Below are positions 44,037 through 59,850 of a DNA stretch of 64,000 nucleotides, piece after piece (the first letter of the stretch is position 1; each line of letters opens with the position of its first letter). A program made the position numbers and the translations under genes. The notes under the pieces are model-generated. The model had not been told where the DNA came from. It saw nothing but the letters and a program-made list of their open reading frames with translations, and searched no databases. Location of the stretch: the NCBI GenBank assembly GCA_015059065.1, contig SVBE01000001.1, positions 14,998 through 78,997 on the forward strand. The letters run 5' to 3'. Origin of the DNA: Erysipelotrichaceae bacterium. Its GTDB lineage: Bacteria > Bacillota_I > Bacilli_A > RFN20 > CAG-826.

Positions 44037-44345
44037 ATGAACTCACTTAAAAGCATGGTAAAAATGGAAGATGAAGTCGGCGTCATCATGTCAATTTATG
44101 CGAAAAACATCTTGTCTGTTATCGATGAAAACAACAATTCCTCAATCCCAAAAATTAATCTATTTTACATCCATCGAGTACAAGAGGCATTTAACGCACT
44201 AAATGAAGAAGAACGTGAATTAATCAATAATGATTTTTTGGACGCCGATTCCCCACATTGGTGGGAACCATTTTATACGAACGAGCAATACCTGAAATTA
44301 AGGTATTCGTCTGTGAGTTCATTTTTGATGCATTTTTATGATTAA
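44037..44345 (+). CDS. small cytoplasmic protein, first gene of the pilus-like operon (possible sigma region-4/ArpU-like regulator)
   Basis: ~102 aa from ATG 44037. No TM segment. The C-terminal segment LNEEERELINNDFL...YLKLRYSSVSSFL resembles small phage-type transcription activators, but the similarity is weak and from memory only. Confidence 0.45.
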   Translation: MNSLKSMVKMEDEVGVIMSIYAKNILSVIDENNNSSIPKINLFYIHRVQEAFNALNEEERELINNDFLDADSPHWWEPFYTNEQYLKLRYSSVSSFLMHFYD

Positions 44346-45369: not shown

Positions 45370-45749
45370 TCATTTTATTCATATCTTTGATGTTTTTATT
45401 AATGGGTTATTCTTTGTTTTCGTTTTCTTTTGCTGCACATGGCATTAATCGTTTAATTATCAACGCGCCGAGGACGATTTTTGAATATGGTGTAGTTGTT
45501 AATGATAGTGGGAACCCATATTACGAACAAGATAATATCAAGAAACGCTACAAAGCATATCTTGATGACAATATTTATCAATATGTTAATAGCTATGATT
45601 TATCATTTCGTTTTTATTACCCTGTAACAGGAGGGCTATGCGAGGAAAAATGCGAAGGAGTGGAAGTTAATATAACTTCGATTATTACCTTTTCTTTTGA
45701 GTATTCGCGAACGATGTTTTATGAAATAAGCGAGGTGCAAAATGGATAA
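45366..45749 (+). CDS. small N-terminally anchored protein (TadE/pseudopilin-like position)
   Basis: 127 aa from ATG 45366 behind SD GGAGGGG. One N-terminal TM (MIILFISLMFLLMGYSLFSFSFAA). ATGA overlap with the upstream gene. Confidence 0.5.
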   Translation: MIILFISLMFLLMGYSLFSFSFAAHGINRLIINAPRTIFEYGVVVNDSGNPYYEQDNIKKRYKAYLDDNIYQYVNSYDLSFRFYYPVTGGLCEEKCEGVEVNITSIITFSFEYSRTMFYEISEVQNG

Positions 45750-46806
45750 GAAGCAAGGTTTAGATTTCTTATATTCTACGAAATTATCTCCATATTTTAA
45801 AAAGGACAATATTACCGATATTTCGTATAATGGTATTGATATTTTTTATGTCGATAATAATGCAGGAAGAATAAAAAGCGATATCGCCTTTAGCCAAGAT
45901 GAAGCGCGCGATTTTATTCGTCAAATAGCGAATATATGTGAAAAACAGTTTTCAATGACATCGCCTAGACTTGATGTTACGATTGACAAATTCCGTATTA
46001 ACGCAATGCATCAATCAATTGGAAGAGTTAAAGACGAACAAGCTGTGACTTTTTCAATACGTATAGCTTCTAAAAAAATACGCATCTATGATGATGAGGA
46101 TTTTTTGACCGAAGAAATAAAAGAATTATTCGATGTTTTGATGGTATCTCATCAGTCTATTGTACTAGGCGGGTTACCTGGGTCTGGAAAAACGGAACTT
46201 CAAAAATATTTATTGACGAGACTTGCTAAAGATCAAAGAGCAATTGTTGTGGACAACGTCCTAGAGCTTGAAACGATTAGAGAATATATCAATTACGATT
46301 TAACGATGTGGCAGTATAACGAGAACAATCCGAATGCATCGTTGCCTTTGCTAATTAAAGAAGCGTTAAGAAATATGCCAGATTGGCTCATTTTAGCCGA
46401 AGGAAGAGGAAAAGAAATGCTTGATATTCTTAATTCGGCGGTGACGGGGTTACCGATTATTACTACTTTGCACGCTTACGATGTTCATAGCATAGTCATT
46501 AGAATGGCAAGAATGGTAATGCAAAATCAGGAAAACAGTCGTTATGAAGATGTTTTAAATGATATAAAATATCACTTTCGTTATTTCGTTTATTTAAAAA
46601 GAGAAAAAGATTCCTCAGGTGTAATAAAAAGATATATCTCTTCAATATTGCATTTAACTCCTAAAGGTGAAGCGATTGAAATATATAATAACGATTTGCA
46701 AAAGATTAGATATGGAAAAATTGATAGAGAATCGTTGTTATTGTTAAAAATTAAAAAGAATCAGACTTCTTTCATAAGAAGTTTTATAGGAGATGTAAAT
46801 GAATAG
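45742..46806 (+). CDS. tadA: CpaF/TadA/VirB11-family secretion ATPase
   Basis: 354 aa. FRINAMHQSIG...FSIR, Walker A GGLPGSGKTELQ, VDNVLELE, ALRNMPDWLILAEGRGKE (Walker B/Asp box), ITTLHA (His box). Confidence 0.85.
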   Translation: MDKKQGLDFLYSTKLSPYFKKDNITDISYNGIDIFYVDNNAGRIKSDIAFSQDEARDFIRQIANICEKQFSMTSPRLDVTIDKFRINAMHQSIGRVKDEQAVTFSIRIASKKIRIYDDEDFLTEEIKELFDVLMVSHQSIVLGGLPGSGKTELQKYLLTRLAKDQRAIVVDNVLELETIREYINYDLTMWQYNENNPNASLPLLIKEALRNMPDWLILAEGRGKEMLDILNSAVTGLPIITTLHAYDVHSIVIRMARMVMQNQENSRYEDVLNDIKYHFRYFVYLKREKDSSGVIKRYISSILHLTPKGEAIEIYNNDLQKIRYGKIDRESLLLLKIKKNQTSFIRSFIGDVNE

Positions 46807-47506
46807 TTATCGCCTTTATTTTGTTATTATCGCTTTAATCGCTTCTGGTGTTTGCTTTTTTGCGAGTGAGAATCTTTATATCACGATTGGGGTAGGGGTC
46901 GTATTTCTTATTTATCCTCAAATAATGTTAGTAAAAAAGATTGAAAAAAGTAATTCAACATATAGCCGATATCATGAGTGTTTTCACTTTGTTAACTCAT
47001 TTATTGTGAGCATTGATATACGCGGATCATTAAACGGCGCTTTTTCCTCAATAAACCCGACAATGAGTAAATCATATCAAGCTGTTTATGAAGGCATAGA
47101 GTCAAACAAAAGTGAAGATAAAATCACTTATTTGCAGAAATATTTCCCTTTCCATTACTATGGCTTATTTATAAAAATAATAAATCTTTGGCAAGAACAA
47201 GGTGGAGATATTTTATCTATGTCGTCCCATTTATTAGAAGAGGGAAGAAAAAGTGAGGAATATTTAAGATACTGTCAAGACTCACATCTCACAAGGACGA
47301 TGGAATTTGTAGTCTTATGGGTTTTTGCCTTGGTTAATCTTGTCGTGATGCGTGTTTCCTTAAACCAGTTTTTCACACATATTGTTAACAATATAGTCTA
47401 TCAGGTTGGATTAACTGCATTCTTCCTCTTCTTTCTAATAAGCATCGATATTCTTGTGAGAAAAGTTACGAGTAAAGAAGTAAAGGGGTGGGATGAATAT
47501 GAATAA
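46799..47506 (+). CDS. TadB-like inner-membrane platform protein (T2SSF-like)
   Basis: 235 aa. N-terminal TM pair, a cytoplasmic helical domain (...LWQEQGGDILSMSSHLLEE...) and C-terminal TMs. Size, topology and position after the ATPase fit TadB. Confidence 0.6.
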   Translation: MNSYRLYFVIIALIASGVCFFASENLYITIGVGVVFLIYPQIMLVKKIEKSNSTYSRYHECFHFVNSFIVSIDIRGSLNGAFSSINPTMSKSYQAVYEGIESNKSEDKITYLQKYFPFHYYGLFIKIINLWQEQGGDILSMSSHLLEEGRKSEEYLRYCQDSHLTRTMEFVVLWVFALVNLVVMRVSLNQFFTHIVNNIVYQVGLTAFFLFFLISIDILVRKVTSKEVKGWDEYE

Positions 47507-48167
47507 ATTAAGAAGAATAATTGAAGAACAAGGTCTTTCATTTTCAAAAGAGATGTTTAAATTAGCATTGATTAACGTCTTTTTCATCGCTTTAGGAGTC
47601 CTCGTTTTTTGTTTAAAGTTAGAAAAATACTATTACATAGTGGTCGTGGTGTTTTTATTGCTTGCAAATTATTTTTTCATTAGTTCTTATTCTAGTCGTT
47701 ACCAGCAGATGATTTATCAGCACGACGATGAATTAATTGCTTTGTTTTCATATTTTAAAGTTTTTATATCGAATCATATTCCGGTCTATTCGGCATTTAC
47801 AAATTTGCTTGCTTATTCAAGTGACTGGATGAAAGAAAAGATAAATCTTTTACTTAAAGAAATTGACAATGACAAAACAGTGCAGCCTTTTATACGTTTT
47901 AGCAAAAACTTTCAAAATCTAGTTTTTGAATCTTTGTGCATTTCTTTGTACCAAATGATTGATGAGGGAGAAAGCTTAGAAAAGAGCAATGAGTTCACTT
48001 TCTTATTTAACGAGGTGAATGAATCGAATATACGTCGGAAAATGGAGAAAAAGAAAAGGTCCTTAGATATTCTGGCTTCTTTTCCTCTATTTGGAAGTGG
48101 GATCATTACTGTGACTCTTACTATTAGTATTGTTTCAAGCATTGGAGGTATGATAAATGTCTTCTAA
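47493..48167 (+). CDS. TadC-like inner-membrane platform protein (T2SSF-like)
   Basis: 224 aa with the same topology as the preceding gene. 14-nt overlap with it. Confidence 0.6.
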   Translation: MNMNKLRRIIEEQGLSFSKEMFKLALINVFFIALGVLVFCLKLEKYYYIVVVVFLLLANYFFISSYSSRYQQMIYQHDDELIALFSYFKVFISNHIPVYSAFTNLLAYSSDWMKEKINLLLKEIDNDKTVQPFIRFSKNFQNLVFESLCISLYQMIDEGESLEKSNEFTFLFNEVNESNIRRKMEKKKRSLDILASFPLFGSGIITVTLTISIVSSIGGMINVF

Positions 48168-48498
48168 AATTGGAACGATTTTATCGATGTTATTTGTAGT
48201 CATGTTTTTCCTTTTTGGGACTGATTTATTATGCCTTCAATATTGCTATTCATCGCTCGATTCTAAAGGAATAACTATTTCTTATTACATAAGCAAAAAT
48301 GGCAGAATTGATAACGATTTTATTTCTTATTTATCGAATAAATACGAAGTTGAAATAATCGCAGATCAAAAACAATCAGTTGATTATGGAGACGTTGTTA
48401 GATTCACGATTAGAGATACATTTAACCCATTGGTGATATCTAGCTCAGAGATGGTTGTATCTATCTCTAGAGAAGCGATTATTGGCTATTATGGGTAG
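48157..48498 (+). CDS. small N-terminally anchored protein (TadE-like/minor pilin candidate)
   Basis: 113 aa with a single N-terminal TM (IGTILSMLFVVMFFLFGTDLL). 11-nt overlap with the upstream gene. Confidence 0.5.
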   Translation: MSSKIGTILSMLFVVMFFLFGTDLLCLQYCYSSLDSKGITISYYISKNGRIDNDFISYLSNKYEVEIIADQKQSVDYGDVVRFTIRDTFNPLVISSSEMVVSISREAIIGYYG

Positions 48499-48512
48499 AA
48501 AGGAGGGTAAGT

Positions 48513-48698
48513 ATGTCAGAGATCAAAGGACAACTATTAGGAATAATTCTCGTTTTAATGGTTTTTGGTGCGGTGTCGGCAGCAATGGTGGTTGTATTTA
48601 ATAAACTTACAAAGAGTGTCGAAGACCAAGTAACAGAAATAACTAATTCGTCATCAAAAAAGAGTGTTTACCAAATTGACGATTATCTTTCCTATTAG
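48513..48698 (+). CDS. Flp/archaeal-type pilin-like protein
   Basis: 61 aa. MSEIKG|QLLGIILVLMVFGAVSAAMVVVF has a short charged leader, Gly, then ~22 hydrophobic residues and a short polar tail. Strong SD AAAGGAGGG. Confidence 0.5.
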   Translation: MSEIKGQLLGIILVLMVFGAVSAAMVVVFNKLTKSVEDQVTEITNSSSKKSVYQIDDYLSY

Positions 48699-48762
48699 AA
48701 ATAATACTTTTTGCTTTCTTCCTCGAGGCAAAAACAATACAATATTTTTATGAGGCCTCAAA

Positions 48763-48987
48763 ATGGATGTTGTTAATACCATTAAAGTAATTTTAGCTAA
48801 GCGTGTTGATGTAACTAAACTTAAGCCTGAGGATACTTTGCCATCACTTGGTTTAGACTCTTTAGATCTAGTTGAAGTTATGCTTGAAATTGAATATGCT
48901 CTCCATATTGAATTCACAAGTGAAGAGATTACAAATTTGACTACAATTCAAAGTGTAATTGATTTGATTAATGCTAAATTAGCATAA
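48763..48987 (+). CDS. acpP: acyl carrier protein
   Basis: 74 aa. LGLDSLDLVEVMLEIE, with the DSL serine as the phosphopantetheine attachment site. Confidence 0.85.
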   Translation: MDVVNTIKVILAKRVDVTKLKPEDTLPSLGLDSLDLVEVMLEIEYALHIEFTSEEITNLTTIQSVIDLINAKLA

Positions 48988-49370: not shown

Positions 49371-50123
49371 TTATGGCAAGTAATGAGTGCTGATATAATT
49401 CATGTTCTCGAGAATATTAGGCCAATAGAATTCAACTCTTCTTCGATAAGATTCGTTTTTAATTTTGGTCTTGTAGTACCTAGCATGAGGCCTAAATAAA
49501 ATTGGCCCAATATGAAGTGCTTCGATAAAGTCCCAGTCTTTGCTTTCAAGATATTTTAAAACCTGAGTGCGAGAAATGATTACACCGATATTGACATCGC
49601 CGTGATATAGATAATCTGCAGAAATGTAATCTTCTTGTGAACCCTTAAATAAAAAACGATCAACCATATCAACAACAAATCTGCGATTAGCATTTAGTTC
49701 TCTGTTGCCAAGAATGAATGGTTTCTCGAGTTTTTTTCTTAGAGCAGGATAGCTCATTCTCTCTTTTCCGGAACCATCATATGTTCCGTCTCCAAATTGG
49801 AAAAAAAGAATTGTTTTGAGCAAATAATCGTGGAAACCATAATCTCTAAGCAGATTAATAAAATTTTTAATGTATTCTTGATGAACAATGTTATTGATAC
49901 CGCTTTTCATCGAAATATAATGAGTTTCATCATTTATGGTAATGGAAAAATCAGGCTTCATTGTTCCTTCAATTTGTTTGGCATAAACGATATCGCCATC
50001 GTGACAATTAGGAAAAACAAAGCGGACAATATTCTGCAAATTAAGCGATAGTAGTGACACTGGTTTTTCATTCAGTTCAGCGACCATTTGTGACTCTTTT
50101 AATTCGCCGTGGTTATACTTCAT
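49371..50123 (-). CDS. PD-(D/E)XK restriction-endonuclease-like protein (MspI/HpaII-like core?), no adjacent methyltransferase
   Basis: 250 aa with SD GGAGGGAG. The candidate nuclease core GTMKPDFSITINDETHYISMKSG fits a PD...(S/N)xK pattern like MspI KTD...NIK. The N-terminal NHGELKE is reminiscent of the HpaII-family GEWSE. Recognition is from memory only. Confidence 0.4.
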   Translation of the reverse strand: MKYNHGELKESQMVAELNEKPVSLLSLNLQNIVRFVFPNCHDGDIVYAKQIEGTMKPDFSITINDETHYISMKSGINNIVHQEYIKNFINLLRDYGFHDYLLKTILFFQFGDGTYDGSGKERMSYPALRKKLEKPFILGNRELNANRRFVVDMVDRFLFKGSQEDYISADYLYHGDVNIGVIISRTQVLKYLESKDWDFIEALHIGPILFRPHARYYKTKIKNESYRRRVEFYWPNILENMNYISTHYLP

Positions 50124-50156
50124 AAACTCCCTCCTTTCTGGAGGCTAAACAAAAAC

Positions 50157-50206
50157 CCTCCTATATATAAAGAGGGCAAAAACGCGAAATTTCGACGCAG
50201 AAATTT
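50157..50206 (-). repeat. right copy of the 50-bp inverted repeat, upstream of the nuclease-like gene
   Basis: On the minus strand it reads AAATTTCTGCGTCGAAATTTCGCGTTTTTGCCCTCTTTATATATAGGAGG. It contains the 10-bp palindrome CGAAATTTCG and lies 33 nt upstream of the ATG at 50123. Confidence 0.85.
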
Positions 50207-50249: not shown

Positions 50250-50912
50250 TTATCGATAAGAGAAAAGAGAGTCTAAGTAGTCCGCAAGCTCATCAGTGCC
50301 TTCATCTTTAATCGAACTAACTTTGAAAACTTTAGCATTTGGATTTCTTTTATGGATATTTGCTTCACATTTTTTAAAGTCAAAGTTGAAGACGGGTAGA
50401 GTATCAATTTTTGTTATAACCGCTATATCACTAACTTGGAACATTAAAGGGTATTTAAGAGGTTTATCGTCACCTTCAGGCACGGACAAAAGCATCATAT
50501 TGATGTTACTGCCTGTATCAAATTCAGCGGGGCATACAAGGTTGCCAATGTTTTCGAGTATTAAAATATCTAATCCTTCAACATTAAACTCATTTATTGC
50601 ATCATTAACCATCTGTGCGGTTAGATGACATGCTCCTGAGGTGTGAATTTGAATTGACTTAACGCCAGTAGCAGAGGATATTCTTTCCGCATCAACTTCT
50701 CCATCAATGTCCGCTTCCATCACGCCAATTTTGTACTTTTTCTTTAATTTATTGATGATATTTGTTAATAGAGTGGTTTTGCCACTTCCTGGTGAAGCCA
50801 TTACGTTAAGGAAGAAAATGCCTTTTTCTTTAAGCATTTTTCTCACCTCTTTTGCCTTTTCATTATTCTCAACAAGAATGTCTTCTTTAACTTTTACCAC
50901 CTGATATTCCAT
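50250..50912 (-). CDS. hypB: hydrogenase/urease-type nickel-insertion GTPase HypB (copy 1)
   Basis: 220 aa from ATG 50912 (SD GAGAGGT). [15 protein letters not shown] (CH metal motif), ENIGNLVCPAEFD, TKID. No His-rich or CxxCGC N-terminus. Confidence 0.88.
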   Translation of the reverse strand: MEYQVVKVKEDILVENNEKAKEVRKMLKEKGIFFLNVMASPGSGKTTLLTNIINKLKKKYKIGVMEADIDGEVDAERISSATGVKSIQIHTSGACHLTAQMVNDAINEFNVEGLDILILENIGNLVCPAEFDTGSNINMMLLSVPEGDDKPLKYPLMFQVSDIAVITKIDTLPVFNFDFKKCEANIHKRNPNAKVFKVSSIKDEGTDELADYLDSLFSYR

Positions 50913-51003
50913 ATAATAATTACCTCTCATACATAATATCATAAAATAATTAGTAGTTTTATTATTAAACATAGTTTACAATAAATACGTTAAGAAATTA
51001 GCA

Positions 51004-51678
51004 ATGAGTGAAATCAAGACTATCACAGTAAATCGTTCAGCTTATGCGGACAATGACGAGGAAGCAAATTTATTGAGAGAGTATCTCAAGAGCAAAGGAA
51101 CTTTTCTTGTGAATCTCATGTCTTCGCCTGGCGCGGGTAAGACTACAACGTTAATAGCTTTGATAAATGTCTTGAAAAAGCAATTTCGCATTGGCGTGAT
51201 GGAAGCGGATATCGATAGTGATGTCGACGCCATTTCTATCGCAAAGAATACAGGAGTAAAATCGATTCAGATTCATACTTCAGGAATGTGCCACCTTGAT
51301 GCAGGAATGACGAAAAGTGGACTTGACAGTATTGATATCAGCGATCTTGACCTTGTGTTCTTAGAAAACGTAGGTAATCTCGTTTGCCCAGCGGAATTCG
51401 ACACTGGAGCGAGTATGGACATGATGATCCTTTCCATTCCAGAAGGCGATGATAAGCCGTTAAAATATCCACTCGTATTTGAGAAATGTGATCTCGTTCT
51501 CATCAATAAGATTGACACTATATCATATTTCAACTTTGATATCGACAAGTGTAAACAAGCGATACTTCGAAGAAATCCTCACGCAACGATTATTCCTATT
51601 AGTGGTTTAACTGGGGAGAACATTGATAAAGTTGCAGAATATTTTAGTAATATCATTAAGAACTGGAAGGAGAAATAA
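51004..51678 (+). CDS. hypB: nickel-insertion GTPase HypB (copy 2)
   Basis: 224 aa. SPGAGKTTTL, GMCHLDA, ENVGNLVCPAEFD, NKID. Divergent from copy 1, separated by a 91-nt spacer. Confidence 0.9.
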   Translation: MSEIKTITVNRSAYADNDEEANLLREYLKSKGTFLVNLMSSPGAGKTTTLIALINVLKKQFRIGVMEADIDSDVDAISIAKNTGVKSIQIHTSGMCHLDAGMTKSGLDSIDISDLDLVFLENVGNLVCPAEFDTGASMDMMILSIPEGDDKPLKYPLVFEKCDLVLINKIDTISYFNFDIDKCKQAILRRNPHATIIPISGLTGENIDKVAEYFSNIIKNWKEK

Positions 51679-51681
51679 ATA

Positions 51682-54576
51682 ATGCCAGAACAATATTACA
51701 AACAAAAACCGCCATTCCAAGGTGAACAAGGCTACTCTTACGAAAAGAAATTGATCAAACTCTGCCGTAAGATTACTGACGTTGTTCCACACAAGTTATT
51801 TGGAATGACAACTAATGACCCAGAATATTTCGGTCTTAGAGAAGTTTTAACTGAGGAAATGATTGATGTTTTACTCAAATTAAAACAAAGAAAACATTAC
51901 ACATTTGAAGATTTGGTGAAGAAATTCCCCGAGATTGAACCAGCTAAGCTTCAAAAATTATTCGACGATATGTCCGTTATCGGTATTATCGAATATGACT
52001 ATGGTGATAATTATGCATGGGATCACCCATTAGAAGATAAACCAAAGATTAAGAGATATATGCTCTCTTATTTCGTTCCTGGCAGTGCAGAGTTGATGAA
52101 CTCTTCCGTTGACCGTATTGCTAAAAATCCAGCCGTTGCATCTTTCTTTGAAAGAATGACATTCGTTCCGCTTGCCGGTGTGACTGAAATGCTTCCTCCT
52201 GGTGGAGGTGGTGTTGGTATGCACGTCATCCCAGTGGAAAAAGCCATTGAAAATAACCAAGAAGCCATCGATGTTGAAAAGATTTCTCACTGGATGGATA
52301 AATACGAAGGTCATATTTCCGCAGGTATTTGTTCATGTCGTGCCTCCAGAGCGATGATCGGCGATGGATGTATCGATGATGTCGATGATTGGTGTGTTCA
52401 ATTCGGTGATATGGCCGATTATACTGTTGAAACTAATCGTGCGCATTATATTACAAAGGAAAGAGCGCTTGAGATTTTCCAAGCTGCAGAAAAGAATGGT
52501 TTCGTTCACCAAATCACTAACATCGACGGTGAAAACAAAATCTTCGATATCTGTAACTGTGACGTCAAGATTTGTAATGCTTTAAGAACAGCATTATTAT
52601 TCAACACTCCATACCTTGAAAGAAGTGCTTATTCTGCAAAGGTTGATAAGACCAAATGTGTGGCATGTGGTCAATGTGTCTCCAATTGTCCAGCTGGTGC
52701 TGTTAAATTAGGTCAAAAATTATGTAAGGGTGACGGCAAAGAGCAAGAATATCCTCTCTCCGTCTTACCAGATAAAATTAAATGGGGCAAATATGCATGG
52801 GATGAAAATTACCGTGATACTGCCCGTAAGAGTGATACTTGGGCTACTGGTACAGCTCCATGTAAGGTTGCTTGTCCAGCTCACGTCCCAGTCCAAGGAT
52901 ATTTACAAAAAGCCAAAGAAGGCAAATATGTCGAAGCTTTAGCGTTAATTAAGACTCAAAACCCATTCCCAGCAGTTTGTGGTCGTGTCTGTAACAAAAA
53001 ATGTGAAGAAGCTTGTACTAGAGGAAAAGTTGACGCACCAGTTTCTATTGATGCTGTCAAGAAATTCGTCGCAGACTTCGAGAGAAGCCAAAAAGATCGT
53101 TATATCCCAGAAAAGATTATGGCGACTTTACACGAAGAAGGCTTCCCAGAAAAGATCGCTATCATCGGTGCTGGTCCAGCTGGTTTATCTGCGGCCTATT
53201 ACTTATGTGAAATGGGCTTCAAACCAACAGTCTTTGAAAAGAATGAAAAACCTGGCGGTATGATGATGTACGGCATTCCATCATACAAACTTGAAAAAGA
53301 CGTCATTGAAGATGAAATTGATATCATCAGAAAGATGGGGGCTGAAATCAAGTGTGGTGTGGAAGTCGGTAAAGATGTAACAATCGCTCAACTTAAAGAA
53401 CAAGGCTATAAAGCCTTCTATATCGCAATCGGTTGCCAAGGTGGCAGAAGACCAAATGTTCCAAATGATACTGCAAAAGGCACTGATATTGCCGTCAGCT
53501 ACTTAAAGGGAGCTCTTGGCAAACAAGTTAAATTCACTGGTGATGTCGTTGTCGTCGGTGGTGGTAACGTTGCTATTGACTGTGTGAGAACAGCTCATAG
53601 ATTAGGAAGCAAGAATGTGCAAATGTTCGCTCTTGAATCAAGAGAAACAATGCCAGCTTCTAAAGAAGAAATTTCTGAAACACTCGATGAAGGAATTCTC
53701 ATCAACAATGGTTGGGGTCCAAAAGAACTTAAAGTCAACGCCAAAGGTGAAGTCACTGAAATCGTCTTCAAAAAATGTACTGCCACATTGGACAAAGATG
53801 GCAAATTCAATCCACAATATGATGAATCCGAAATCATGACTGTGAAAGCCGATAAAGTAATCTTCGCAATTGGCCAAGCTATTGAATGGGGTAACCTCTT
53901 AGAAGGAAGCAAAGTCACATTCTGGCATGGTAATTATCCACTCGCTGATAAGTTAACTTATCAAACTGCTGACGATGATATCTTCGTCGGTGGTGATGTC
54001 TTCACTGGTCCAAAATTCGTCATCAACGCGATTGCTGCTGGTCACGAAGTTGCCGATGCTCTCGCTAGACATGTTAGACCAAATGCCCATCCAACTATCG
54101 CCTTTAATAGACGTGGATTCACTCCTCTTAATAAAGATGATATTACTCTTCCAGGTTATGATGAAGCTGGTAGACAAGAAGCTGGTATGGACGAAAAGAT
54201 TGACCACAAGAACTCCTTCAAAGATGCCCATAAGACTCTTACTGAAGAACAAGTTCACATCGAGACAAGCAGATGTCTCTCCTGTGGTGCCGCCCATGTT
54301 GACTTCAACAAATGTATCGGTTGTGGTGTTTGTACAACTAAATGTAAGTTCGACGCCATCCACTTGGTGAGAGATCACCCAGAATGTTCCAATATGAAAC
54401 GTGCCGAAGATAAAGTTGGCACTCTCCTCAAATACGCTCTCAAACGCGAAGTTAAAATCTTGCTCCATTCCGGTAGCAAAGAAGCTCGCATGATGAGAAA
54501 GAAACGCAAGGAGTGGAACAAATACTACAAAACTGCCAAGAAAGAAAAACCTTGGACAGGTAACGCAGTAGAATAA
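51682..54576 (+). CDS. large multi-cluster Fe-S flavoprotein: unknown Cys-rich N-domain + ferredoxin + GltD/DPD-like FAD/NAD(P) module + C-terminal 2x[4Fe-4S] ferredoxin
   Basis: 964 aa. CSCRAS...C...C, then CVACGQCVSNCP, then CKVACPAH...CGRVCNKKCEEACTRG (GltD N-terminal clusters), IAIIGAGPAGLSAAYYL, VVVVGGGNVAIDC, and CLSCG...CIGCGVCTTKC. Confidence 0.85.
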   Translation: MPEQYYKQKPPFQGEQGYSYEKKLIKLCRKITDVVPHKLFGMTTNDPEYFGLREVLTEEMIDVLLKLKQRKHYTFEDLVKKFPEIEPAKLQKLFDDMSVIGIIEYDYGDNYAWDHPLEDKPKIKRYMLSYFVPGSAELMNSSVDRIAKNPAVASFFERMTFVPLAGVTEMLPPGGGGVGMHVIPVEKAIENNQEAIDVEKISHWMDKYEGHISAGICSCRASRAMIGDGCIDDVDDWCVQFGDMADYTVETNRAHYITKERALEIFQAAEKNGFVHQITNIDGENKIFDICNCDVKICNALRTALLFNTPYLERSAYSAKVDKTKCVACGQCVSNCPAGAVKLGQKLCKGDGKEQEYPLSVLPDKIKWGKYAWDENYRDTARKSDTWATGTAPCKVACPAHVPVQGYLQKAKEGKYVEALALIKTQNPFPAVCGRVCNKKCEEACTRGKVDAPVSIDAVKKFVADFERSQKDRYIPEKIMATLHEEGFPEKIAIIGAGPAGLSAAYYLCEMGFKPTVFEKNEKPGGMMMYGIPSYKLEKDVIEDEIDIIRKMGAEIKCGVEVGKDVTIAQLKEQGYKAFYIAIGCQGGRRPNVPNDTAKGTDIAVSYLKGALGKQVKFTGDVVVVGGGNVAIDCVRTAHRLGSKNVQMFALESRETMPASKEEISETLDEGILINNGWGPKELKVNAKGEVTEIVFKKCTATLDKDGKFNPQYDESEIMTVKADKVIFAIGQAIEWGNLLEGSKVTFWHGNYPLADKLTYQTADDDIFVGGDVFTGPKFVINAIAAGHEVADALARHVRPNAHPTIAFNRRGFTPLNKDDITLPGYDEAGRQEAGMDEKIDHKNSFKDAHKTLTEEQVHIETSRCLSCGAAHVDFNKCIGCGVCTTKCKFDAIHLVRDHPECSNMKRAEDKVGTLLKYALKREVKILLHSGSKEARMMRKKRKEWNKYYKTAKKEKPWTGNAVE

Positions 54577-54920
54577 TGCACGAACTTGGAATCGTTGTCC
54601 ACGTTGTCAAACAAGTCGAGGAACTCGTCAAAAAGAATAATGCGACAAAAGCATTAGAAGTGACTCTTGAAGTCGGCGAGGTCAGTGGGGTTGTTAAAGA
54701 ATATTTCGTCGATGCCTTTAATTGGGCAGCAAAAAGATCGGAATATATGAAGGAATGTAAACTCAATTATATTACCATTCAAGCAATCACATATTGTCAA
54801 GACTGTAAACATACATATCAGACGGTGAAATATGGTAAAGAATGTCCATACTGCCATTCTCCGAATACATATCTCACTACTGGTAAAGATGTGATGATCA
54901 AGGACATCAAAGTAATATAA
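54576..54920 (+). CDS. hypA: nickel metallochaperone HypA
   Basis: 114 aa. N-terminal MHE nickel site and a zinc site CQDC...CPYC. The ATG shares one nucleotide with the upstream TAA (TAATG). Confidence 0.9.
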   Translation: MHELGIVVHVVKQVEELVKKNNATKALEVTLEVGEVSGVVKEYFVDAFNWAAKRSEYMKECKLNYITIQAITYCQDCKHTYQTVKYGKECPYCHSPNTYLTTGKDVMIKDIKVI

Positions 54921-54926
54921 ATTAAG

Positions 54927-54953
54927 AAAGTAGGCCTCAAAACCTACTTTTTT
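54927..54953 (+). terminator. intrinsic terminator after hypA
   Basis: AAAGTAGG-CCTCAAAA-CCTACTTT followed by TTT. Confidence 0.8.
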
Positions 54954-55017
54954 AAAATATATGTATATTTAAAAATAACAAACTGGTTATAATAGAAAAA
55001 AAGGATGGTTTTTGATT

Positions 55018-55656
55018 ATGAAAAATTTGTTAGATAAAACCTATGATTTATTTGCTTCAAGACTGAATAAGTGGTTTATTCTAGCTGGCATTGCTTCCCT
55101 TGGATTAAACGCTTTGTTTACATTTATTGGTGGAGTGAGCTCACTTGGCAGCGAAGCATTTTATTATATTGTTCTTCTTGCTTTCCAAGCTCTTATTATC
55201 GTTGGCCTTATCGTTGGCCATTATCGAAACAAAGAACCTCTTTTATTCTTCGCATTTATCGCATTTCTTGTTTTATTAGCGCAGGGTAGTGTGGTAGGTG
55301 CTACATTCGGTGCAAGCGCTTTAGGCCAAGCAGACACTACCTATGTTTTAAGATGGGTATTTTCTTTGATTTATGCGATCGCCCTTGGCTGTTTCTTAGT
55401 CTGTATCCTTCTCGTTTACTTATTTAAAGTGAAAATGGTGGTTATCATTTTAAAAGCGAGCTTTTTCCTCTCTTTAATCTTTGGAGTTGTGGCTTGGATA
55501 TTTGGCATCGTCTATGCGGCCAATGGATATGGTTGGACTAACGCTATTATTCCTTTATTAGAAGTTGGCTCATTATTAATGATTCCTGGATTACTTGAAG
55601 AACTTCTTCCTGGCGAACTCGATGGCGAAAGAGAAGAAAAAGAATCTGAAGAATAG
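55018..55656 (+). CDS. polytopic membrane protein with an acidic C-terminal tail
   Basis: ~212 aa with about 6 TM segments and a tail GELDGEREEKESEE. No family recognised. Confidence 0.55.
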   Translation: MKNLLDKTYDLFASRLNKWFILAGIASLGLNALFTFIGGVSSLGSEAFYYIVLLAFQALIIVGLIVGHYRNKEPLLFFAFIAFLVLLAQGSVVGATFGASALGQADTTYVLRWVFSLIYAIALGCFLVCILLVYLFKVKMVVIILKASFFLSLIFGVVAWIFGIVYAANGYGWTNAIIPLLEVGSLLMIPGLLEELLPGELDGEREEKESEE

Positions 55657-55754: not shown

Positions 55755-57563
55755 ATGATTACAGGTAAGTATATCAATAAATTCTATAAAAAATATTGGT
55801 ACATGTTCCTCTTTGGAGTACTTGTTTTAATCGCGGTTGACTGGATACAGTTATATATTCCACAGTTTACAGGCGATGTCGTTGATCGACTCGCTGACGG
55901 TTTTGTGACCGACGAAGATATTTCCGCAATTAGTTTGGAAGTGCTATGGATTTTATTGATTGCTTTTGGAATGTTTGTCGGCCGTATTTTGTGGAGAATA
56001 TCAATTCTTTTCACTGCGAGAAAAATTGAAGGTGAACTAAGAAGAGATATGTTTTTAAAAGCTGAGAAGCTTTCTGTTAATTATTATCATAATAATAAAG
56101 TTGGAGCGATTATGGCTTGGTTTACCAACGACCTAGAAACCATTGAAGAATGTTTCGGCTTCGGCACAGTCATGATTGTTGATAGCACATTCTTATTGAT
56201 GTTCTCATTGGTCAAGATGATTGTACTTGACCCATCTTTGACTCTCATTTCTATTATCCCAGTGGCCTTAATTGTTTTATGGGGTGCATTAGTGGAAAAA
56301 GTGATGTCAGAGAAGTGGGAATTGAGACAGAAGAGTTTTGATGACATCTATGATTATTCACAAGAAAACTTCACGGGAATTAGAGTAATTAAAGCTTTCG
56401 TTAAGGAGAACCAAGAGATATTGGCTTTCTCTAAAGTAGCCCGCCGCAGTCAAAAGATCGAGGTCGATGCAGCAAGAGTGTCAGTGGGCTTTGATGTCGC
56501 AATTGAAGTAATTATAGCTTTATGTTTTGCAGTTATTTTAGGCTTTGGCGGATGGTTTGTTTTAGCAGCTGTACAAGGTAACCCAATAGTAATACTCGGT
56601 CATGAAATATATTTAAGCGCCGGTAAGTTAGTAGAATTCACCGGATATTTTGATTCAATGATTTGGCCTCTTATTGCCTTAGGACAGATCGTCACAATGC
56701 GCGCTAGAGGAAAAGCAAGTGTGAAACGTATCTCTGAATATATGGAAACAGAGGAAGAAATACATGATAAAGAAGACGCTGTCGAATTTGATGTCAAAGG
56801 CAAAATCTCTTTCAATCATTTCTTTTTCACTTATCCAGAAAGTAAAAATGAAACATTGACAGATGTCAATTTAACCATTGAAGCTGGCGAAACAGTTGGT
56901 ATTATCGGAAAGATTGGAAGCGGTAAATCCACAATAGTTAATTCCTTATTAAGACTATATAATCTCGCTCCAAGGTCAGTGTTTATCGATGATGTTGATA
57001 TCATGGATATGAAAATATCTTGTGTGAGAGATAATATTGCGATTGTTCCACAAGATAATTTCCTCTTCTCTGATACAATTGAGAAAAATATTAATTTCTC
57101 TGATCGCACACGTAGTTTAGATGAGGCTATTGAAGCAGCCCAGTTTGCTGATGTTCACGATAATATTGTGGAATTTAAGGACCAATATCAAACAATCTCT
57201 GGTGAAAGAGGTGTTACTCTTTCTGGTGGGCAAAAACAACGTATCTCATTAGCGAGAGCGTATGCGAAAAACGCGCCAATTCTAATATTGGATGACTCTG
57301 TTTCTGCGGTTGACTTAAAAACAGAGGAAAAGATTTTAAAGAATATTAAAGAGCAACGAAAAGGTAAGACCACATTAGTGATTGCTTCTCGTGTATCAAC
57401 TGTTGCTCATATGGATAAAATCATGGTGATTAACGATGGGAAGATTGAAGCTTTTGCTTCGCCAAAAGAATTATCAAAGATTTCACCAACATACCAAAAG
57501 ATGGTTTATTTGCAAAGATTAGAGAAAGAAGTAGGAAGTGTAGCGCCATGGAAGAAGAATTAA
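55755..57563 (+). CDS. ABC exporter half-transporter (degenerate-site subunit of a heterodimer)
   Basis: 602 aa. 6-TM domain, GKIGSGKST, LSGGQKQR, and Walker B ILILDDS with Asp in place of the catalytic Glu. Confidence 0.9.
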   Translation: MITGKYINKFYKKYWYMFLFGVLVLIAVDWIQLYIPQFTGDVVDRLADGFVTDEDISAISLEVLWILLIAFGMFVGRILWRISILFTARKIEGELRRDMFLKAEKLSVNYYHNNKVGAIMAWFTNDLETIEECFGFGTVMIVDSTFLLMFSLVKMIVLDPSLTLISIIPVALIVLWGALVEKVMSEKWELRQKSFDDIYDYSQENFTGIRVIKAFVKENQEILAFSKVARRSQKIEVDAARVSVGFDVAIEVIIALCFAVILGFGGWFVLAAVQGNPIVILGHEIYLSAGKLVEFTGYFDSMIWPLIALGQIVTMRARGKASVKRISEYMETEEEIHDKEDAVEFDVKGKISFNHFFFTYPESKNETLTDVNLTIEAGETVGIIGKIGSGKSTIVNSLLRLYNLAPRSVFIDDVDIMDMKISCVRDNIAIVPQDNFLFSDTIEKNINFSDRTRSLDEAIEAAQFADVHDNIVEFKDQYQTISGERGVTLSGGQKQRISLARAYAKNAPILILDDSVSAVDLKTEEKILKNIKEQRKGKTTLVIASRVSTVAHMDKIMVINDGKIEAFASPKELSKISPTYQKMVYLQRLEKEVGSVAPWKKN

Positions 57564-59335
57564 TGAGATTAAAGGGCGATCACCATATCCCTACAAGAAC
57601 TCTGGTGAAAAGATTGGTTAAATATGTCTCCAAATATTGGAGCAGATTCCTTTTAGCGTTCATTTTGATCACCGTCAATGTTGCCCTTGATATCATTACC
57701 CCATTGTTCGTCAGGGCGATTACTGATTATTTATCAACAGCGACGATTAATTCCACCGTGCTTTATATCGTTTCATTCTCAGTTGGCTATTTCGTTCTCT
57801 GCTTAGGAAATCAAATCATTTTATATTTAGAAGCGATGCTCCTCCAACGTACAGGACAAGCCATCATCTATGAATTAAGAATGGAAGTGTTCACTCATAT
57901 TGAAAATATGTCGCAGAACCAATTTAATGATATGCCAGTTGGCTCACTAGTCACTCGTGTCGCAAACTATACGACTAATATGTCTGATTTATTTACGACG
58001 ACATTAGTGGCGATGGTAAGGAATATATTCACCATTGTTGGCGTCTATATTATCATGATTACCTTATCGCCATTATTATCACTGATATTATTTGGCTTTG
58101 TGATTGTTGTTTTCATTATTTCTTTCATCTTTAGAAACACAATTTCTAAGAGATTTAGAATTGAAAGAGGATGTTTATCCGACCTCAATACATTCTTAAA
58201 CGAGAATCTTGGTGGAATGAAGATCATTCAAATCTTTAATCAGGAAGAAAGAAAAGTAGAGGAATTTGATGCGAAGAACACGGCTTATTATAAGGCTCGT
58301 ATCAAAGTCATGAAGGCTTTCGCAATTTATCGTCCATCAATTTCATTCTTATATTTTGCTGCAATTGCTGTGACCTTTATGGTTGGTATTCAACCTTGGA
58401 TTGGTTTATCCGCTGGTGGAGTTGTTGCCTTCTATTTATATCTCTCTCGTTTCTTCAATCCAGTTCAGAATTTAGCAGATCAATTAAATAACCTTCAAAG
58501 AGCAAGAACCGCCTCTGAAAGATTGTTCAATTTATTAGAGGTTGAACCAGAGGTGCTCGACGCTCCTGATGCGATCGATATCGATCATTTCGAAGGCAAG
58601 ATTGAATTCCGTGATGTGTGGTTTGCTTATAAACCTAATGAGTGGATATTAAAAGGCATCAATTTTGTCATCGAACCTAAACAATCTATTGCATTTATTG
58701 GAGCAACTGGAAGTGGCAAAACAACAATTCTCTCTTTAATTGTTCGTAATTATGAGATTGCAAAAGGGCAGATTTTAATCGACGATATCGATATTAAAAA
58801 GATCAAGATAAATTCTTTACGTAAAGCGATTGGCCAGATGCTACAAGATGTTTTCTTGTTCTCAGGAACAATCAAAACTAATATTACCCTACATGATGAA
58901 TCGTTTACCCAGGAACAAATCGAGGAAGCATGCGTTTATGTTAACGCGGATAGATTTATCAATAAACTTCCAAATAAACTCGAAGAAGAAGTGATTGAAC
59001 GCGGTGAGAACTTCTCCCAAGGTGAAAGACAGCTCTTATCATTCGCACGTACTGTTTTGCATCAACCACAAATATTAATACTTGATGAAGCCACTGCGAA
59101 TATCGATACCGAAACTGAAGTTTTGATTCAAGAAAGTTTAGAAAAAATGAAATCTATCGGCACAATGCTTATCGTTGCTCATAGATTATCTACTATCCAA
59201 AAATGTGATCAAATATTTGTTCTTAAGGATGGAGTGCTTTTAGAAAGAGGCAACCATCAATCATTACTTTCTCAAAAAGGTGAATACTATAAGTTATATC
59301 AACTACAGTTTGATGAAGATTTACAAAGCAACTAA
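57548..59335 (+). CDS. ABC exporter half-transporter (consensus-site subunit of a heterodimer)
   Basis: 595 aa. GATGSGKTT, a non-canonical signature FSQGERQ, and Walker B ILILDEAT with the catalytic Glu. 16-nt overlap with the partner gene. Confidence 0.9.
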   Translation: MEEELMRLKGDHHIPTRTLVKRLVKYVSKYWSRFLLAFILITVNVALDIITPLFVRAITDYLSTATINSTVLYIVSFSVGYFVLCLGNQIILYLEAMLLQRTGQAIIYELRMEVFTHIENMSQNQFNDMPVGSLVTRVANYTTNMSDLFTTTLVAMVRNIFTIVGVYIIMITLSPLLSLILFGFVIVVFIISFIFRNTISKRFRIERGCLSDLNTFLNENLGGMKIIQIFNQEERKVEEFDAKNTAYYKARIKVMKAFAIYRPSISFLYFAAIAVTFMVGIQPWIGLSAGGVVAFYLYLSRFFNPVQNLADQLNNLQRARTASERLFNLLEVEPEVLDAPDAIDIDHFEGKIEFRDVWFAYKPNEWILKGINFVIEPKQSIAFIGATGSGKTTILSLIVRNYEIAKGQILIDDIDIKKIKINSLRKAIGQMLQDVFLFSGTIKTNITLHDESFTQEQIEEACVYVNADRFINKLPNKLEEEVIERGENFSQGERQLLSFARTVLHQPQILILDEATANIDTETEVLIQESLEKMKSIGTMLIVAHRLSTIQKCDQIFVLKDGVLLERGNHQSLLSQKGEYYKLYQLQFDEDLQSN

Positions 59336-59850
59336 ATTTTATTTTTAATAAAACCCATCATTGCATTCGCCATATCTTCTGGAGTGTCGATATAATTTCT
59401 GTTGCTCCATCGGATGACAACATTAAATAATCCTCCAGAGAAAAATGGGATATCAAATGGATTAAGTATGTTACCCAAATTCATTTTTGACGCTATATAT
59501 GATGAATATTGCTCAAATTGAGCGAGAAGAATCGTATCTCTTTGTGATTTTTTAAGCATATCGATTTCGCGATGATATTTTTTAAGATTGGCGAAGAACA
59601 TAATAAACATATCTTTCACCGTGAGAGTCGGTGAATGTGAGATTTCTTGGAAGAACGCATCAAACGTTTCATCGCAAAAGACGATAAAAATATCTTCCTT
59701 AGTTGAATAGTAACGGTAGAAAGACATGCGTGAAACACCGGCCTTTTCACAAATCTCTTTAATTGATATGTTATCGAAATCCTTTTTCAAAAGAAGTTCA
59801 TAGATTGCTAATTGAATCAGCTTTTTGCTCTTTGCTTTTTTGCTTTTCAT
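59332..59850 (-). CDS. TetR-family transcriptional regulator
   Basis: 172 aa. N-terminal HTH ISIKEICEKAGVSRMSFYRYYSTKEDIF. Confidence 0.85.
   Translation of the reverse strand: MKSKKAKSKKLIQLAIYELLLKKDFDNISIKEICEKAGVSRMSFYRYYSTKEDIFIVFCDETFDAFFQEISHSPTLTVKDMFIMFFANLKKYHREIDMLKKSQRDTILLAQFEQYSSYIASKMNLGNILNPFDIPFFSGGLFNVVIRWSNRNYIDTPEDMANAMMGFIKNKI

What the first reader, a model, noticed from the sequence alone, without database searches (positions are those of the whole stretch)
50250..54920. hypB / hypB - 964-aa Fe-S flavoprotein - hypA cluster with no recognisable nickel enzyme
HypA (MHE Ni site, CxxC...CxxC Zn site) and two HypB GTPases (CH motif, ENxGNLVCPA) normally mature [NiFe]-hydrogenase or urease. 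Here hypB2 ends 3 nt before the start of a 964-aa multi-cluster flavoprotein. The stop of that protein overlaps the hypA ATG (TAATG at 54574-54578), and a terminator follows. So the metallochaperones bracket an oxidoreductase that is not a known Ni enzyme. The window contains no hydrogenase large or small subunit, hypCDEF, ureABC, cooS/acsA, larA or Ni transporter. Either the flavoprotein or a partner needs HypAB-delivered metal, which would be a new client, or it is the redox partner of a Ni enzyme encoded elsewhere.
Basis: partly seen in the sequence, partly recalled or inferred. Interest (0 to 1): 0.6.

Follow-up and report, generated by a model that had tools for sequence, protein, structure and literature searches.

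The report
Nickel-chaperone-flanked IsrA-type diene reductase
A small gut or rumen bacterium keeps its only nickel-chaperone genes (hypA and two hypB) wrapped around a large iron-sulfur flavoprotein of the published but biochemically untested "putative isoprene reductase" (IsrA) family, and comparative genomics suggests the protein is itself the nickel client and may hydrogenate conjugated fatty acids.

Summary
hypB1 (minus strand) faces hypB2, a 964-aa Fe-S flavoprotein "X" and hypA. The last three are translationally coupled and end at a terminator.

X is not an orphan. It is 43% identical over its full length to IsrA, the putative isoprene reductase of Acetobacterium wieringae. Kronen et al. 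(2023) already reported that this family sits next to hypA and hypB, and proposed a Cys6 site as a nickel site. Nickel has never been shown.

New evidence here:
- **Own genome:** it is 1.27 Mb and 90% complete, and has no [NiFe]-hydrogenase, CODH/HCP, HypD, LarA, urease or CbiM.
- **Order survey:** in 201 genomes of the same order, X occurs in 74 and HypA in exactly those 74. Four X-negative genomes carry hypA remnants or contig-edge copies.
- **Paralogues:** each X paralogue has its own hypA.
- **Isomerase link:** a homologue of the linoleate isomerase PAI occurs in 39 genomes, all X-positive. It often shares an operon with hypB-X-hypA. The window's genome carries one on another contig.

Best reading: X is a HypAB-matured, probably nickel-dependent, conjugated-diene reductase, plausibly acting on conjugated linoleic acid. 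It is a new member of a known, uncharacterised family.

The parts
50250..50912 (-). hypB1, a divergent second HypB GTPase of 220 aa from the corrected start (the ORF is open to 50972)
   Evidence: TIGR00073 scores 242.6 bits. The P-loop GSGKT, GACH, ENIGNLVCPAEFD and TKID are visible. A ribosome-binding site precedes the ATG at 50912. The same divergent layout occurs in L005, L007 and L091.
50155..50177 (-). terminator-like hairpin directly after hypB1
   Evidence: It implies that hypB1 is monocistronic and that the 250-aa ORF at 49371-50123 is not part of the module. That ORF has no Pfam match and is not conserved in L005.
50913..51003 (.). 91-bp divergent intergenic (promoter) region between hypB1 and hypB2
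   Evidence: Sequence read. Only weak sigma-70-like matches were found. A promoter here is inferred, not shown.
51004..51678 (+). hypB2, a HypB GTPase and first gene of the hypB2-X-hypA operon
   Evidence: TIGR00073 scores 215.7 bits. Motifs are visible. Its stop lies 3 nt before the X start. A HypB is adjacent to X in 60 of 80 related loci.
51682..54576 (+). X, a 964-aa IsrA-family ('clade 9') Fe-S flavoprotein reductase
   Evidence: 43% identity over 882 aa to IsrA, P0289. P0289 is identified as IsrA by its isrA-hypA-hypB-fdx-hypA operon in GCA_902175055.1 and by the paper's description.
51682..52626 (+). family-specific N-domain (residues 1-315): a winged-helix part (about residues 45-125) plus a Cys-rich part
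   Evidence: No Pfam or PDB sequence match. There are 931 representative homologues, and the full-length ones are about 900 aa. Foldseek matches only the wHTH part, to MarR/DsrD-like folds.
52330..52575 (+). Cys6 site: C217, C219 (CSCR), C238, C291, C293 (CNC) and C298, with invariant R220 and H276. This is the candidate Ni/Fe-S active site.
   Evidence: These residues are invariant in 10 distant and 66 closer homologues. They correspond to the IsrA C180/C182 and C254/C256 'cluster V' site of PMC10134865. Metal content is inferred, not shown.
52639..52722 (+). ferredoxin-type CxxCxxCxxxCP motif (C326-C336)
   Evidence: PF00037 match at residues 320-341. The motif is invariant.
52849..54081 (+). 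GltD/NfnB-like module: Fer4_20 (two [4Fe-4S]) plus FAD and NAD(P)H Rossmann folds
   Evidence: PF14691 and PF07992. PRK12771 scores 430 bits. PDB matches include 9bov, 9n5u, 4ylf, 5jca and 2vdc.
54259..54381 (+). C-terminal ferredoxin-type Cys motifs (CLSCGA...CIGCGVCTTKC)
   Evidence: NCBIfam Fer4-type matches at residues 869-899. The sequence is shown.
54576..54920 (+). hypA, a nickel metallochaperone whose start overlaps the X stop (TAATG)
   Evidence: PF01155 scores 99.3 bits. MHE and CxxC...CxxC are present. It is the only hypA in the genome. A hypA is adjacent to X in 71 of 80 loci.
54927..54950 (+). intrinsic terminator hairpin followed by a T-run, marking the end of the operon

Best explanation
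hypB2-X-hypA, together with the divergent hypB1, is a self-contained enzyme-plus-maturase module.

**What X is.** X belongs to the IsrA ('clade 9') family.

**How it probably works.**
- NAD(P)H reduces FAD in the GltD/NfnB-like module.
- Electrons then pass along a chain of [4Fe-4S] clusters to a family-specific N-terminal site built from six invariant cysteines (two CxC motifs).
- At that site a C=C bond of a conjugated diene is reduced.
- HypB (GTPase) and HypA are dedicated to this enzyme. They most likely insert nickel into, or next to, the Cys6 site.

**What is shown.** Gene order and coupling, family membership, conservation of the cysteines and of the HypA/HypB metal motifs, strict phyletic co-occurrence of hypA with X, and absence of every classical nickel client.

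**What is inferred.** That the metal is nickel, that it sits in the Cys6 site, the electron path, and the substrate class. The substrate class is extrapolated from isoprene and butadiene reduction by strains carrying IsrA, and from the link to a PAI-type fatty-acid isomerase.
For: - **Family.** X is 43% identical to IsrA over 882 aa, including the N-domain and all six cysteines. The paper reports proteomic induction of IsrA, HypA and HypB by isoprene. It also reports HypA and HypB co-occurrence of 0.73 and 0.56 among 988 homologues.
- **Adjacency.** hypA lies next to X in 71 of 80 loci and hypB in 60 of 80. These loci come from Bacillota, Bacteroidota, Spirochaetota, Coriobacteriia and Fibrobacterota.
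- **Co-occurrence.** In 201 genomes of the order, X is in 74 and HypA in all 74. Four X-negative genomes have traces: three carry stop codons or score weakly, and one sits at a contig edge. Fisher p is about 1e-50, and 8e-13 at genus level.
- **Paralogues.** Even paralogues only 29-39% identical carry their own hypA just downstream.
- **No other client.** The own genome has none of the [NiFe] large subunit, CODH/HCP, HypD, LarA, urease alpha or CbiM. It has a single hypA, two hypB and one X.
- **Other genomes.** Of 50 other X genomes, 47 lack a [NiFe] large subunit, 48 lack CODH and 27 lack all four known classes.
- **Chaperone motifs.** The nickel-binding MHE and the Zn Cys4 site are kept in 69 of 71 HypA. 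The P-loop, GxCH and ENxGNLVCP motifs are kept in 62-65 of 67 HypB.
Against: - No metal analysis exists for any family member.
- The Cys6 site could simply hold an unusual Fe-S cluster.
- No nickel importer was found in this genome. CbiM is absent, and NiCoT, HupE and Nik were not tested.
- HypB is missing next to X in 20 of 80 loci, and hypA in 9 of 80. Many of those sit at contig ends.
- HypA scores below the TIGR00100 equivalog cut-off (72.9 against 88.1 bits), so it is a divergent HypA.
- The genome is only 90% complete.
- The order-level counts are not phylogenetically independent.
Confidence: 0.72

Rival explanations
1. HypA and HypB serve an unrecognised nickel enzyme encoded elsewhere, and X is only its electron-transfer partner. 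It would act as an NAD(P)H:ferredoxin-type oxidoreductase co-expressed with the chaperones.
For: The C-terminal two thirds of X is a generic NfnB/GltD electron-transfer module. The genome is 90% complete. In 5 loci a CdhC-like protein and a CooC-like ATPase lie nearby.
Against: No conserved third partner appears in the 80 neighbourhoods. Only HypA, HypB, DUF5692 (16 loci), GntR (14) and PAI recur. hypA follows every X paralogue one-to-one. The N-domain carries its own invariant Cys6/His site. No known nickel enzyme is present in the genome.
Confidence: 0.1
2. The HypA/HypB paralogues here deliver a metal other than nickel to X (zinc or iron), or act as assembly or stability factors for an all-iron Cys6 cluster. 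X would then be an Fe-S enzyme, not a nickel enzyme.
For: From general knowledge of HypA/HypB, the HypB G-domain CH...C site and the HypA Cys4 site bind Zn as well as Ni. No dedicated nickel importer was detected: CbiM scored above its family cut-off in only 6 of 51 X genomes (9 at E <= 0.001) and is absent in this one. The paper itself compares the Cys6 site to P-cluster or double-cubane sites. HypA falls below the equivalog cut-off.
Against: The nickel-specific N-terminal MHE motif of HypA is kept in 69 of 71 copies. Every characterised HypA/HypB pair handles nickel (established knowledge). Other importers (NiCoT, HupE, Nik) were not tested.
Confidence: 0.15
3. The arrangement is a relic. 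The hyp genes are left over from a lost hydrogenase operon and lie next to X by chance.
For: None beyond the absence of a hydrogenase in the genome.
Against: The genes are translationally coupled. The order is conserved across at least five phyla at 50-75% identity with unrelated flanks. Metal motifs are intact. Co-occurrence is perfect, whereas hypA decays where X is absent: G066 and G131 carry stop codons.
Confidence: 0.01

Closest known systems
IsrA, the putative isoprene reductase of Acetobacterium wieringae ISORED-2 / strain Y, and its 'clade 9' homologues (Kronen et al. 2023, PMC10134865)
   Same: - Same full-length architecture: N-domain with Cys6 (two CxC), Fer4, a GltD/NfnB-like FAD/NAD(P)H module and a C-terminal Fer4.
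- 43% identity over 882 aa.
- hypA and hypB are adjacent.
- The host lacks a [NiFe] hydrogenase and hypCDEF (for A. wieringae; here).
   Different: - X lies in a different large clade of the tree.
- X lacks the ~22-26-aa insertion typical of the isoprene-reducing cluster.
- X has an invariant PPGGxGxGMHxIPVE loop where IsrA has a shorter loop without the His.
- The window has no extra N-domain ferredoxin or second hypA, but it has a second hypB.
- The host here has no other known nickel enzyme, whereas A. wieringae has CODH/ACS and LarA.
- The X clade is linked to a PAI-type isomerase, which the paper does not mention.
NfnB / GltD / DsrL-type Fe-S flavoproteins (for example PDB 4ylf, 5jca, 2vdc; fused forms 9bov, 8oh5)
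   Same: Residues ~390-800 of X match these proteins at E 1e-48 to 1e-87. X shares their two [4Fe-4S] clusters, FAD and NAD(P)H sites.
   Different: They have no N-terminal wHTH plus Cys6 domain and no link to nickel chaperones. In X this module is only the electron-input part.
HypA/HypB nickel insertion into [NiFe]-hydrogenase (and urease in Helicobacter)
   Same: HypA keeps MHE and the Zn Cys4 site. HypB is a type-1 G3E GTPase with the CH...C site.
   Different: There is no large subunit and no HypCDEF in the genome. Both HypB lack the N-terminal CxxCGC or His-rich nickel-storage region. The presumed target is a Cys-rich Fe-S flavoprotein.
Bacterial fatty-acid biohydrogenation enzymes: PAI of Cutibacterium acnes (PDB 2B9W), CLA-ER of Lactobacillus plantarum, and the CLA reductase activity of Butyrivibrio
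   Same: The X clade co-occurs with close PAI homologues and is often co-operonic with them. IsrA-carrying strains reduce conjugated dienes.
   Different: From and general knowledge, CLA-ER is a small enone reductase acting on 10-oxo-trans-11 intermediates, and it is not related to X. No gene of the X type has been tied to CLA reduction in the literature searched.

Membership tests
IsrA 'clade 9' oxidoreductases (PMC10134865) | Aligns to the entire ~900-aa IsrA, including the first ~270-300 residues that GltD/NfnB homologues lack | tested here: met
   BLASTP aligns X residues 47-899 to IsrA residues 24-878 at 43% identity. P0289 is identified as IsrA by its operon in the ISORED-2 assembly.
IsrA 'clade 9' oxidoreductases (PMC10134865) | Six clustered cysteines with two CxC motifs ('cluster V' site) | tested here: met
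   C217, C219, C238, C291, C293 and C298 are invariant in A1 (10 distant sequences) and A2 (66 sequences). Their spatial clustering could not be measured because no coordinates were returned.
IsrA 'clade 9' oxidoreductases (PMC10134865) | FAD/NAD(P)H domain, Fer4_20 and two further ferredoxin-type motifs | tested here: met
   PF07992, PF14691 and PF00037. C-terminal Fer4-type matches appear.
IsrA 'clade 9' oxidoreductases (PMC10134865) | hypA and/or hypB within a few genes | tested here: met
   hypB2 and hypA abut X, and hypB1 is divergent.
IsrA sensu stricto (isoprene-reducing cluster I) | The 26-aa insertion at IsrA 756-782 and the five-gene isr operon with an N-domain ferredoxin and a second hypA | tested here: not met
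   The alignment shows a gap in X opposite the IsrA insertion. The window has no such ferredoxin and no second hypA. X falls in a different clade.
IsrA sensu stricto (isoprene-reducing cluster I) | Isoprene or 1,3-butadiene reduction activity | not testable with these tools
   This needs an enzyme or culture assay.
HypB (TIGR00073) | Score above the equivalog cut-off, plus the GTPase P-loop, the CH...C metal site and NKxD | tested here: met
   Scores of 242.6 and 215.7 bits against a cut-off of 121.2. The motifs were read.
HypA (PF01155 / TIGR00100) | Pfam gathering score, the N-terminal MHE nickel site and the CxxC...CxxC zinc site | tested here: met
   PF01155 scores 99.3 bits against a cut-off of 28.9. 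MHELG... and CQDC...CPYC are present. The stricter TIGR00100 equivalog cut-off is not reached (72.9 against 88.1 bits).
[NiFe]-hydrogenase maturation system | A large subunit and HypCDEF in the same genome | tested here: not met
   PF00374 and PF01924 are absent from G000. Only HypD was searched among HypCDEF.
Nickel enzyme (general) | Nickel bound and required for activity | not testable with these tools
   Only indirect evidence exists: dedicated HypA/HypB, conserved nickel motifs, and no other client.
PAI-type polyunsaturated fatty acid isomerase (the partner gene, G000 contig C20:14941-16401, outside the window) | Close full-length homology to the C. acnes PAI (PDB 2B9W) | tested here: met
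   phmmer E = 7.8e-100 for the own-genome copy and 1.4e-112 for the L008 copy. 2B9W is identified as PAI in PMC13003489. Activity was not tested.

The most novel reading that the evidence does not exclude
X and its clade are the missing conjugated-diene (conjugated linoleic acid) reductases of gut and rumen fatty-acid biohydrogenation. A PAI-type isomerase would turn linoleate into a conjugated diene such as t10,c12-CLA. X would then hydrogenate one double bond at a HypAB-installed Ni-Fe-S centre in its Cys6 pocket. That would also make the family a new class of nickel enzyme.
Probability: 0.35. Interest if true: 0.85.

Novelty: new member of a known kind. Interest (0 to 1): 0.55.

Why it matters
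If nickel is confirmed, this family would be a new class of nickel enzyme, one that uses the hydrogenase chaperones HypA and HypB without any hydrogenase. It is very widespread in gut and rumen anaerobes. More than 8000 close homologues were found, and X occurs in 74 of 201 genomes of this order.

This genome is a cleaner test case than A. wieringae. It is tiny, and no other known nickel enzyme was detected in it.

The strict nesting of PAI-type isomerase genes inside the set of X-positive genomes, together with their frequent operonic fusion with hypB-X-hypA, gives concrete candidate genes. They could account for a reduction step of ruminal and gut biohydrogenation of dietary polyunsaturated fat. 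That process shapes milk and meat fat composition and CLA levels, and its reductases remain genetically poorly defined.

Tried and rejected
- **Classical clients in the own genome.** I looked for the [NiFe] large subunit, CODH/HCP, HypD, LarA, urease alpha and CbiM. None was found.
- **The flanking 250-aa ORF (49371-50123) as part of the module.** Rejected. It has no Pfam match, is not homologous to the gene at that position in L005, and a terminator separates it from hypB1.
- **The 214-aa membrane protein after hypA as a nickel permease or module part.** It has no Pfam match and no homologue in the 80 related loci.
- **Solved relatives of the N-domain.** PDB sequence search and Foldseek on two AF2 models were used. 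Only the winged-helix part matches, weakly, to MarR/DsrD-like folds. The Cys-rich part matches nothing at E < 0.2. The models have moderate confidence (pLDDT 73.6 and 60.8), and no coordinates were returned, so Cys-Cys distances could not be checked.
- **Literature.** I searched for biochemical proof of nickel in IsrA-type enzymes, and for a published link to CLA reduction. Neither was found.
- **Naming P0190.** The cluster look-up to identify it gave no names.

Full report
**1. The observation**

ORF listing and family scans confirm four genes.
- hypB1 lies at 50250-50972 on the minus strand.
- hypB2 lies at 51004-51678 on the plus strand.
- A 964-aa protein, called X here, lies at 51682-54576.
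- hypA lies at 54576-54920.

Both HypB score far above the TIGR00073 cut-off. They carry the P-loop, GxCH, ENxGNLVCPAEFD and (N/T)KID motifs. Both lack an N-terminal CxxCGC or His-rich region. HypA has MHE and CQDC...CPYC.

Three nucleotides separate hypB2 from X. A TAATG overlap joins X and hypA. A hairpin with a T-run follows at 54927-54950.

hypB1 most likely starts at 50912, where a GAGAGG ribosome-binding site precedes MEYQVV. It is followed by its own terminator-like hairpin at 50177-50155.

The unit is therefore hypB1 facing the hypB2-X-hypA operon across a 91-bp intergenic region.

**2. What X is**

Pfam and NCBIfam recognise three parts:
- one ferredoxin motif at residues 320-341;
- a GltD/NfnB-type module at about residues 390-800 (Fer4_20 plus FAD and NAD(P)H Rossmann folds);
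- a C-terminal ferredoxin-type motif.

PDB sequence hits cover only residues ~370-875, matching NfnB, GltD, DPD and fused formate-dehydrogenase subunits. The first ~315 residues match nothing.

An exhaustive HMMER search with that N-domain found 931 representatives, and the full-length ones are about 880-945 aa. Alignments of 10 distant and 66 closer homologues show these invariant residues:
- C217, C219, R220, C238, H276, C291, N292, C293, C298 and R302;
- the CxxCxxCxxxCP motif;
- in the X clade, a PPGGxGxGMHxIPVE loop.

AF2 models of the N-domain (pLDDT 73.6) and of its Cys-rich half (pLDDT 60.8) gave only weak winged-helix matches for residues ~45-125. The Cys-rich part matched nothing.

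**3. It is a member of a published family**

Notes from earlier agents in this scan pointed to IsrA. I tested that lead.

Kronen et al. 2023 (PMC10134865) describe a 901-aa oxidoreductase of Acetobacterium wieringae ISORED-2. It is induced by isoprene and encoded in an isrA-hypA-hypB-ferredoxin-hypA operon. It has four canonical [4Fe-4S] sites and a Cys6 site with two CxC motifs. Its ~900-aa 'clade 9' homologues occur in many anaerobes.

Among 988 homologues, HypA co-occurs at 0.73 and HypB at 0.56. The authors propose that IsrA is the nickel target, and they state that this needs biochemical proof.

I recovered IsrA itself as P0289. It is 901 aa, comes from A. wieringae, and sits in GCA_902175055.1 in exactly that five-gene operon.

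X is 43% identical to it over 882 aa, from the N-domain to the C-terminal ferredoxin. All six cysteines align. X lacks the insertion that marks the isoprene-reducing cluster. It falls in a different large clade of a 92-sequence tree.

Later preprints on Pelotomaculum show hypA and hypB induced 373-fold and 585-fold by isoprene, but they contain no enzymology. I found no paper showing nickel in any member.

**4. Evidence added here that X is the HypAB client**

(a) A scan of GTDB species genomes with the N-domain profile returned 80 loci. They come from Bacillota, Bacteroidota, Spirochaetota, Coriobacteriia and Fibrobacterota. hypA is adjacent in 71 and hypB in 60, almost always on the same strand. 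The wider flanks are unrelated.

(b) The window's genome is 1.27 Mb and 90% complete. It has none of the following:
- [NiFe] large subunit
- CODH/HCP
- HypD
- LarA
- urease alpha
- CbiM

It has exactly one hypA, two hypB and one X.

(c) I surveyed 50 other X-bearing genomes.

| Family | Genomes with a match |
|---|---|
| PF00374 ([NiFe] large subunit) | 3, all partial (model positions 1-69 only) |
| True CODH | 2 |
| Urease alpha | 1, marginal |
| LarA-like | 20 |
| None of these four | 27 |

(d) I surveyed 201 genomes of the window's own order.
- X is present in 74.
- HypA is present in all 74 of those.
- Among the 127 X-negative genomes, only four show any hypA trace.
  - Two of these traces carry stop codons.
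  - One is a sub-threshold hit with a stop codon.
  - One lies at the edge of a contig in an 80%-complete assembly.

Fisher p is about 1e-50 for genomes and 8e-13 for genera. These counts are not phylogenetically independent.

Second X paralogues that are only 29-39% identical each have their own hypA about 2.7 kb downstream of the start of their N-domain (coordinates).

(e) The nickel-site and zinc-site motifs of HypA are retained in 69 of 71 copies. The GTPase and metal motifs of HypB are retained in 62-65 of 67 copies.

Together these results make a hidden hydrogenase, or a relic arrangement, untenable. The redox-partner reading is also unlikely, because no third conserved partner appears.

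**5. A functional lead: link to a fatty-acid isomerase**

Clustering all neighbours of the 80 loci gave few recurrent families besides HypA and HypB: DUF5692 in 16 loci, a GntR/FCD regulator in 14, and transporters.

In five loci a ~460-aa FAD protein lies just upstream on the same strand. These loci (L008, L010, L011, L017, L022) include the nearest relatives of X outside its own family. The protein matches PDB 2B9W at E = 1.4e-112. [quoted passage not shown]

The window's genome has such a gene on contig C20 (14941-16401; E = 7.8e-100 to 2B9W).

In the same 201-genome set the PAI homologue occurs in 39 genomes. All 39 are X-positive, and none of the 127 X-negative genomes has it. Fisher p is 2e-21 for genomes and 7e-6 at genus level.

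Seven regions fetched from that order show these layouts:
- PAI-hypB-X-hypA
- PAI-X-hypA
- hypB-X-hypA followed by PAI

The last group includes the closest relative, G187, which is 85% identical in the N-domain and has the same divergent hypB1.

The 2023 paper mentions neither an isomerase nor linoleate. It notes only an oleate hydratase next to two Acetobacterium homologues. Strains carrying IsrA reduce isoprene, and a related strain (N) reduces 1,3-butadiene. These substrates are unfunctionalised conjugated dienes.

The simplest synthesis is that the X clade hydrogenates the conjugated diene made by the isomerase. This is inference only. Just 39 of 74 X genomes have PAI, and in this genome the two genes are unlinked. 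Earlier agents of this scan reached the same idea on other genomes. That is not independent evidence.

**6. Verdict**

X is a new member of the IsrA clade-9 family, in a subclade distinct from IsrA proper. The mechanism I commit to has three steps.
1. NAD(P)H reduces FAD.
2. Electrons pass along the [4Fe-4S] chain to the Cys6 site.
3. A conjugated diene is reduced at that site, which HypB and HypA load with nickel.

| Claim | Confidence |
|---|---|
| HypAB are dedicated to X | about 0.8 |
| The metal is nickel | about 0.6 |
| The substrate is a conjugated fatty acid | about 0.35-0.45 |

**Limits**
- No model coordinates were returned.
- The other nickel importers were not searched.
- Most genomes surveyed are incomplete metagenome-assembled genomes.

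Noticed in passing
G000 contig C20:14941-16401 (outside the window): The window's genome encodes a close homologue of the C. acnes linoleate isomerase PAI (E = 7.8e-100 to PDB 2B9W). In relatives this gene is often in the hypB-X-hypA operon.
   Followed up: yes
L068:3292-8883 (-); also L028, L037, L050, L039: A divergent operon lies next to hypB-X-hypA in five loci, including Pseudobutyrivibrio ruminis AD2017. It encodes a CdhC-like 240-aa protein (PF03598, ACS beta-subunit family), a BcrAD/BadFG-type activator ATPase, two HGD-D proteins and a CooC/MinD-like ATPase. This may be another Ni/Fe-S-related module.
   Followed up: partly
window 55012-55656 (+): A 214-aa multi-pass membrane protein lies directly after the hypA terminator. 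It has no Pfam match and no homologue in 80 related loci. In 16 of those loci a DUF5692 membrane protein occupies that position instead.
   Followed up: partly
window 50880-50972 (-): hypB1 is probably 220 aa, starting at 50912 behind a GAGAGG ribosome-binding site. The 20 extra N-terminal codons of the longest ORF are likely not translated.
   Followed up: yes
X residues 172-186 (window 52195-52239): The loop PPGGxGxGMHxIPVE is invariant in 66 X-clade sequences but predicted with pLDDT below 50. IsrA and its clade have a shorter loop with Arg in place of His. It is a candidate determinant of substrate or metal specificity.
   Followed up: partly
L017:14015-16825 and L022:7164-9980: Some genomes carry tandem X paralogues. 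Across the order, each paralogue, even at 29-39% identity, has its own hypA downstream.
   Followed up: partly
window 44338-48987 (+): Upstream lies a tight operon with a T2SSE-type ATPase (45742-46806) and several small unannotated ORFs, which looks like a competence or pilus operon. It is followed by a lone 74-aa PP-binding (ACP-like) gene at 48763-48987.
   Followed up: no
window 55755-59850: Two heterodimeric ABC exporter genes (602 and 595 aa) are followed by a convergent TetR regulator. The 2023 paper lists TetR as a frequent neighbour of clade-9 genes (0.21), but here it more likely controls the exporter.
   Followed up: no
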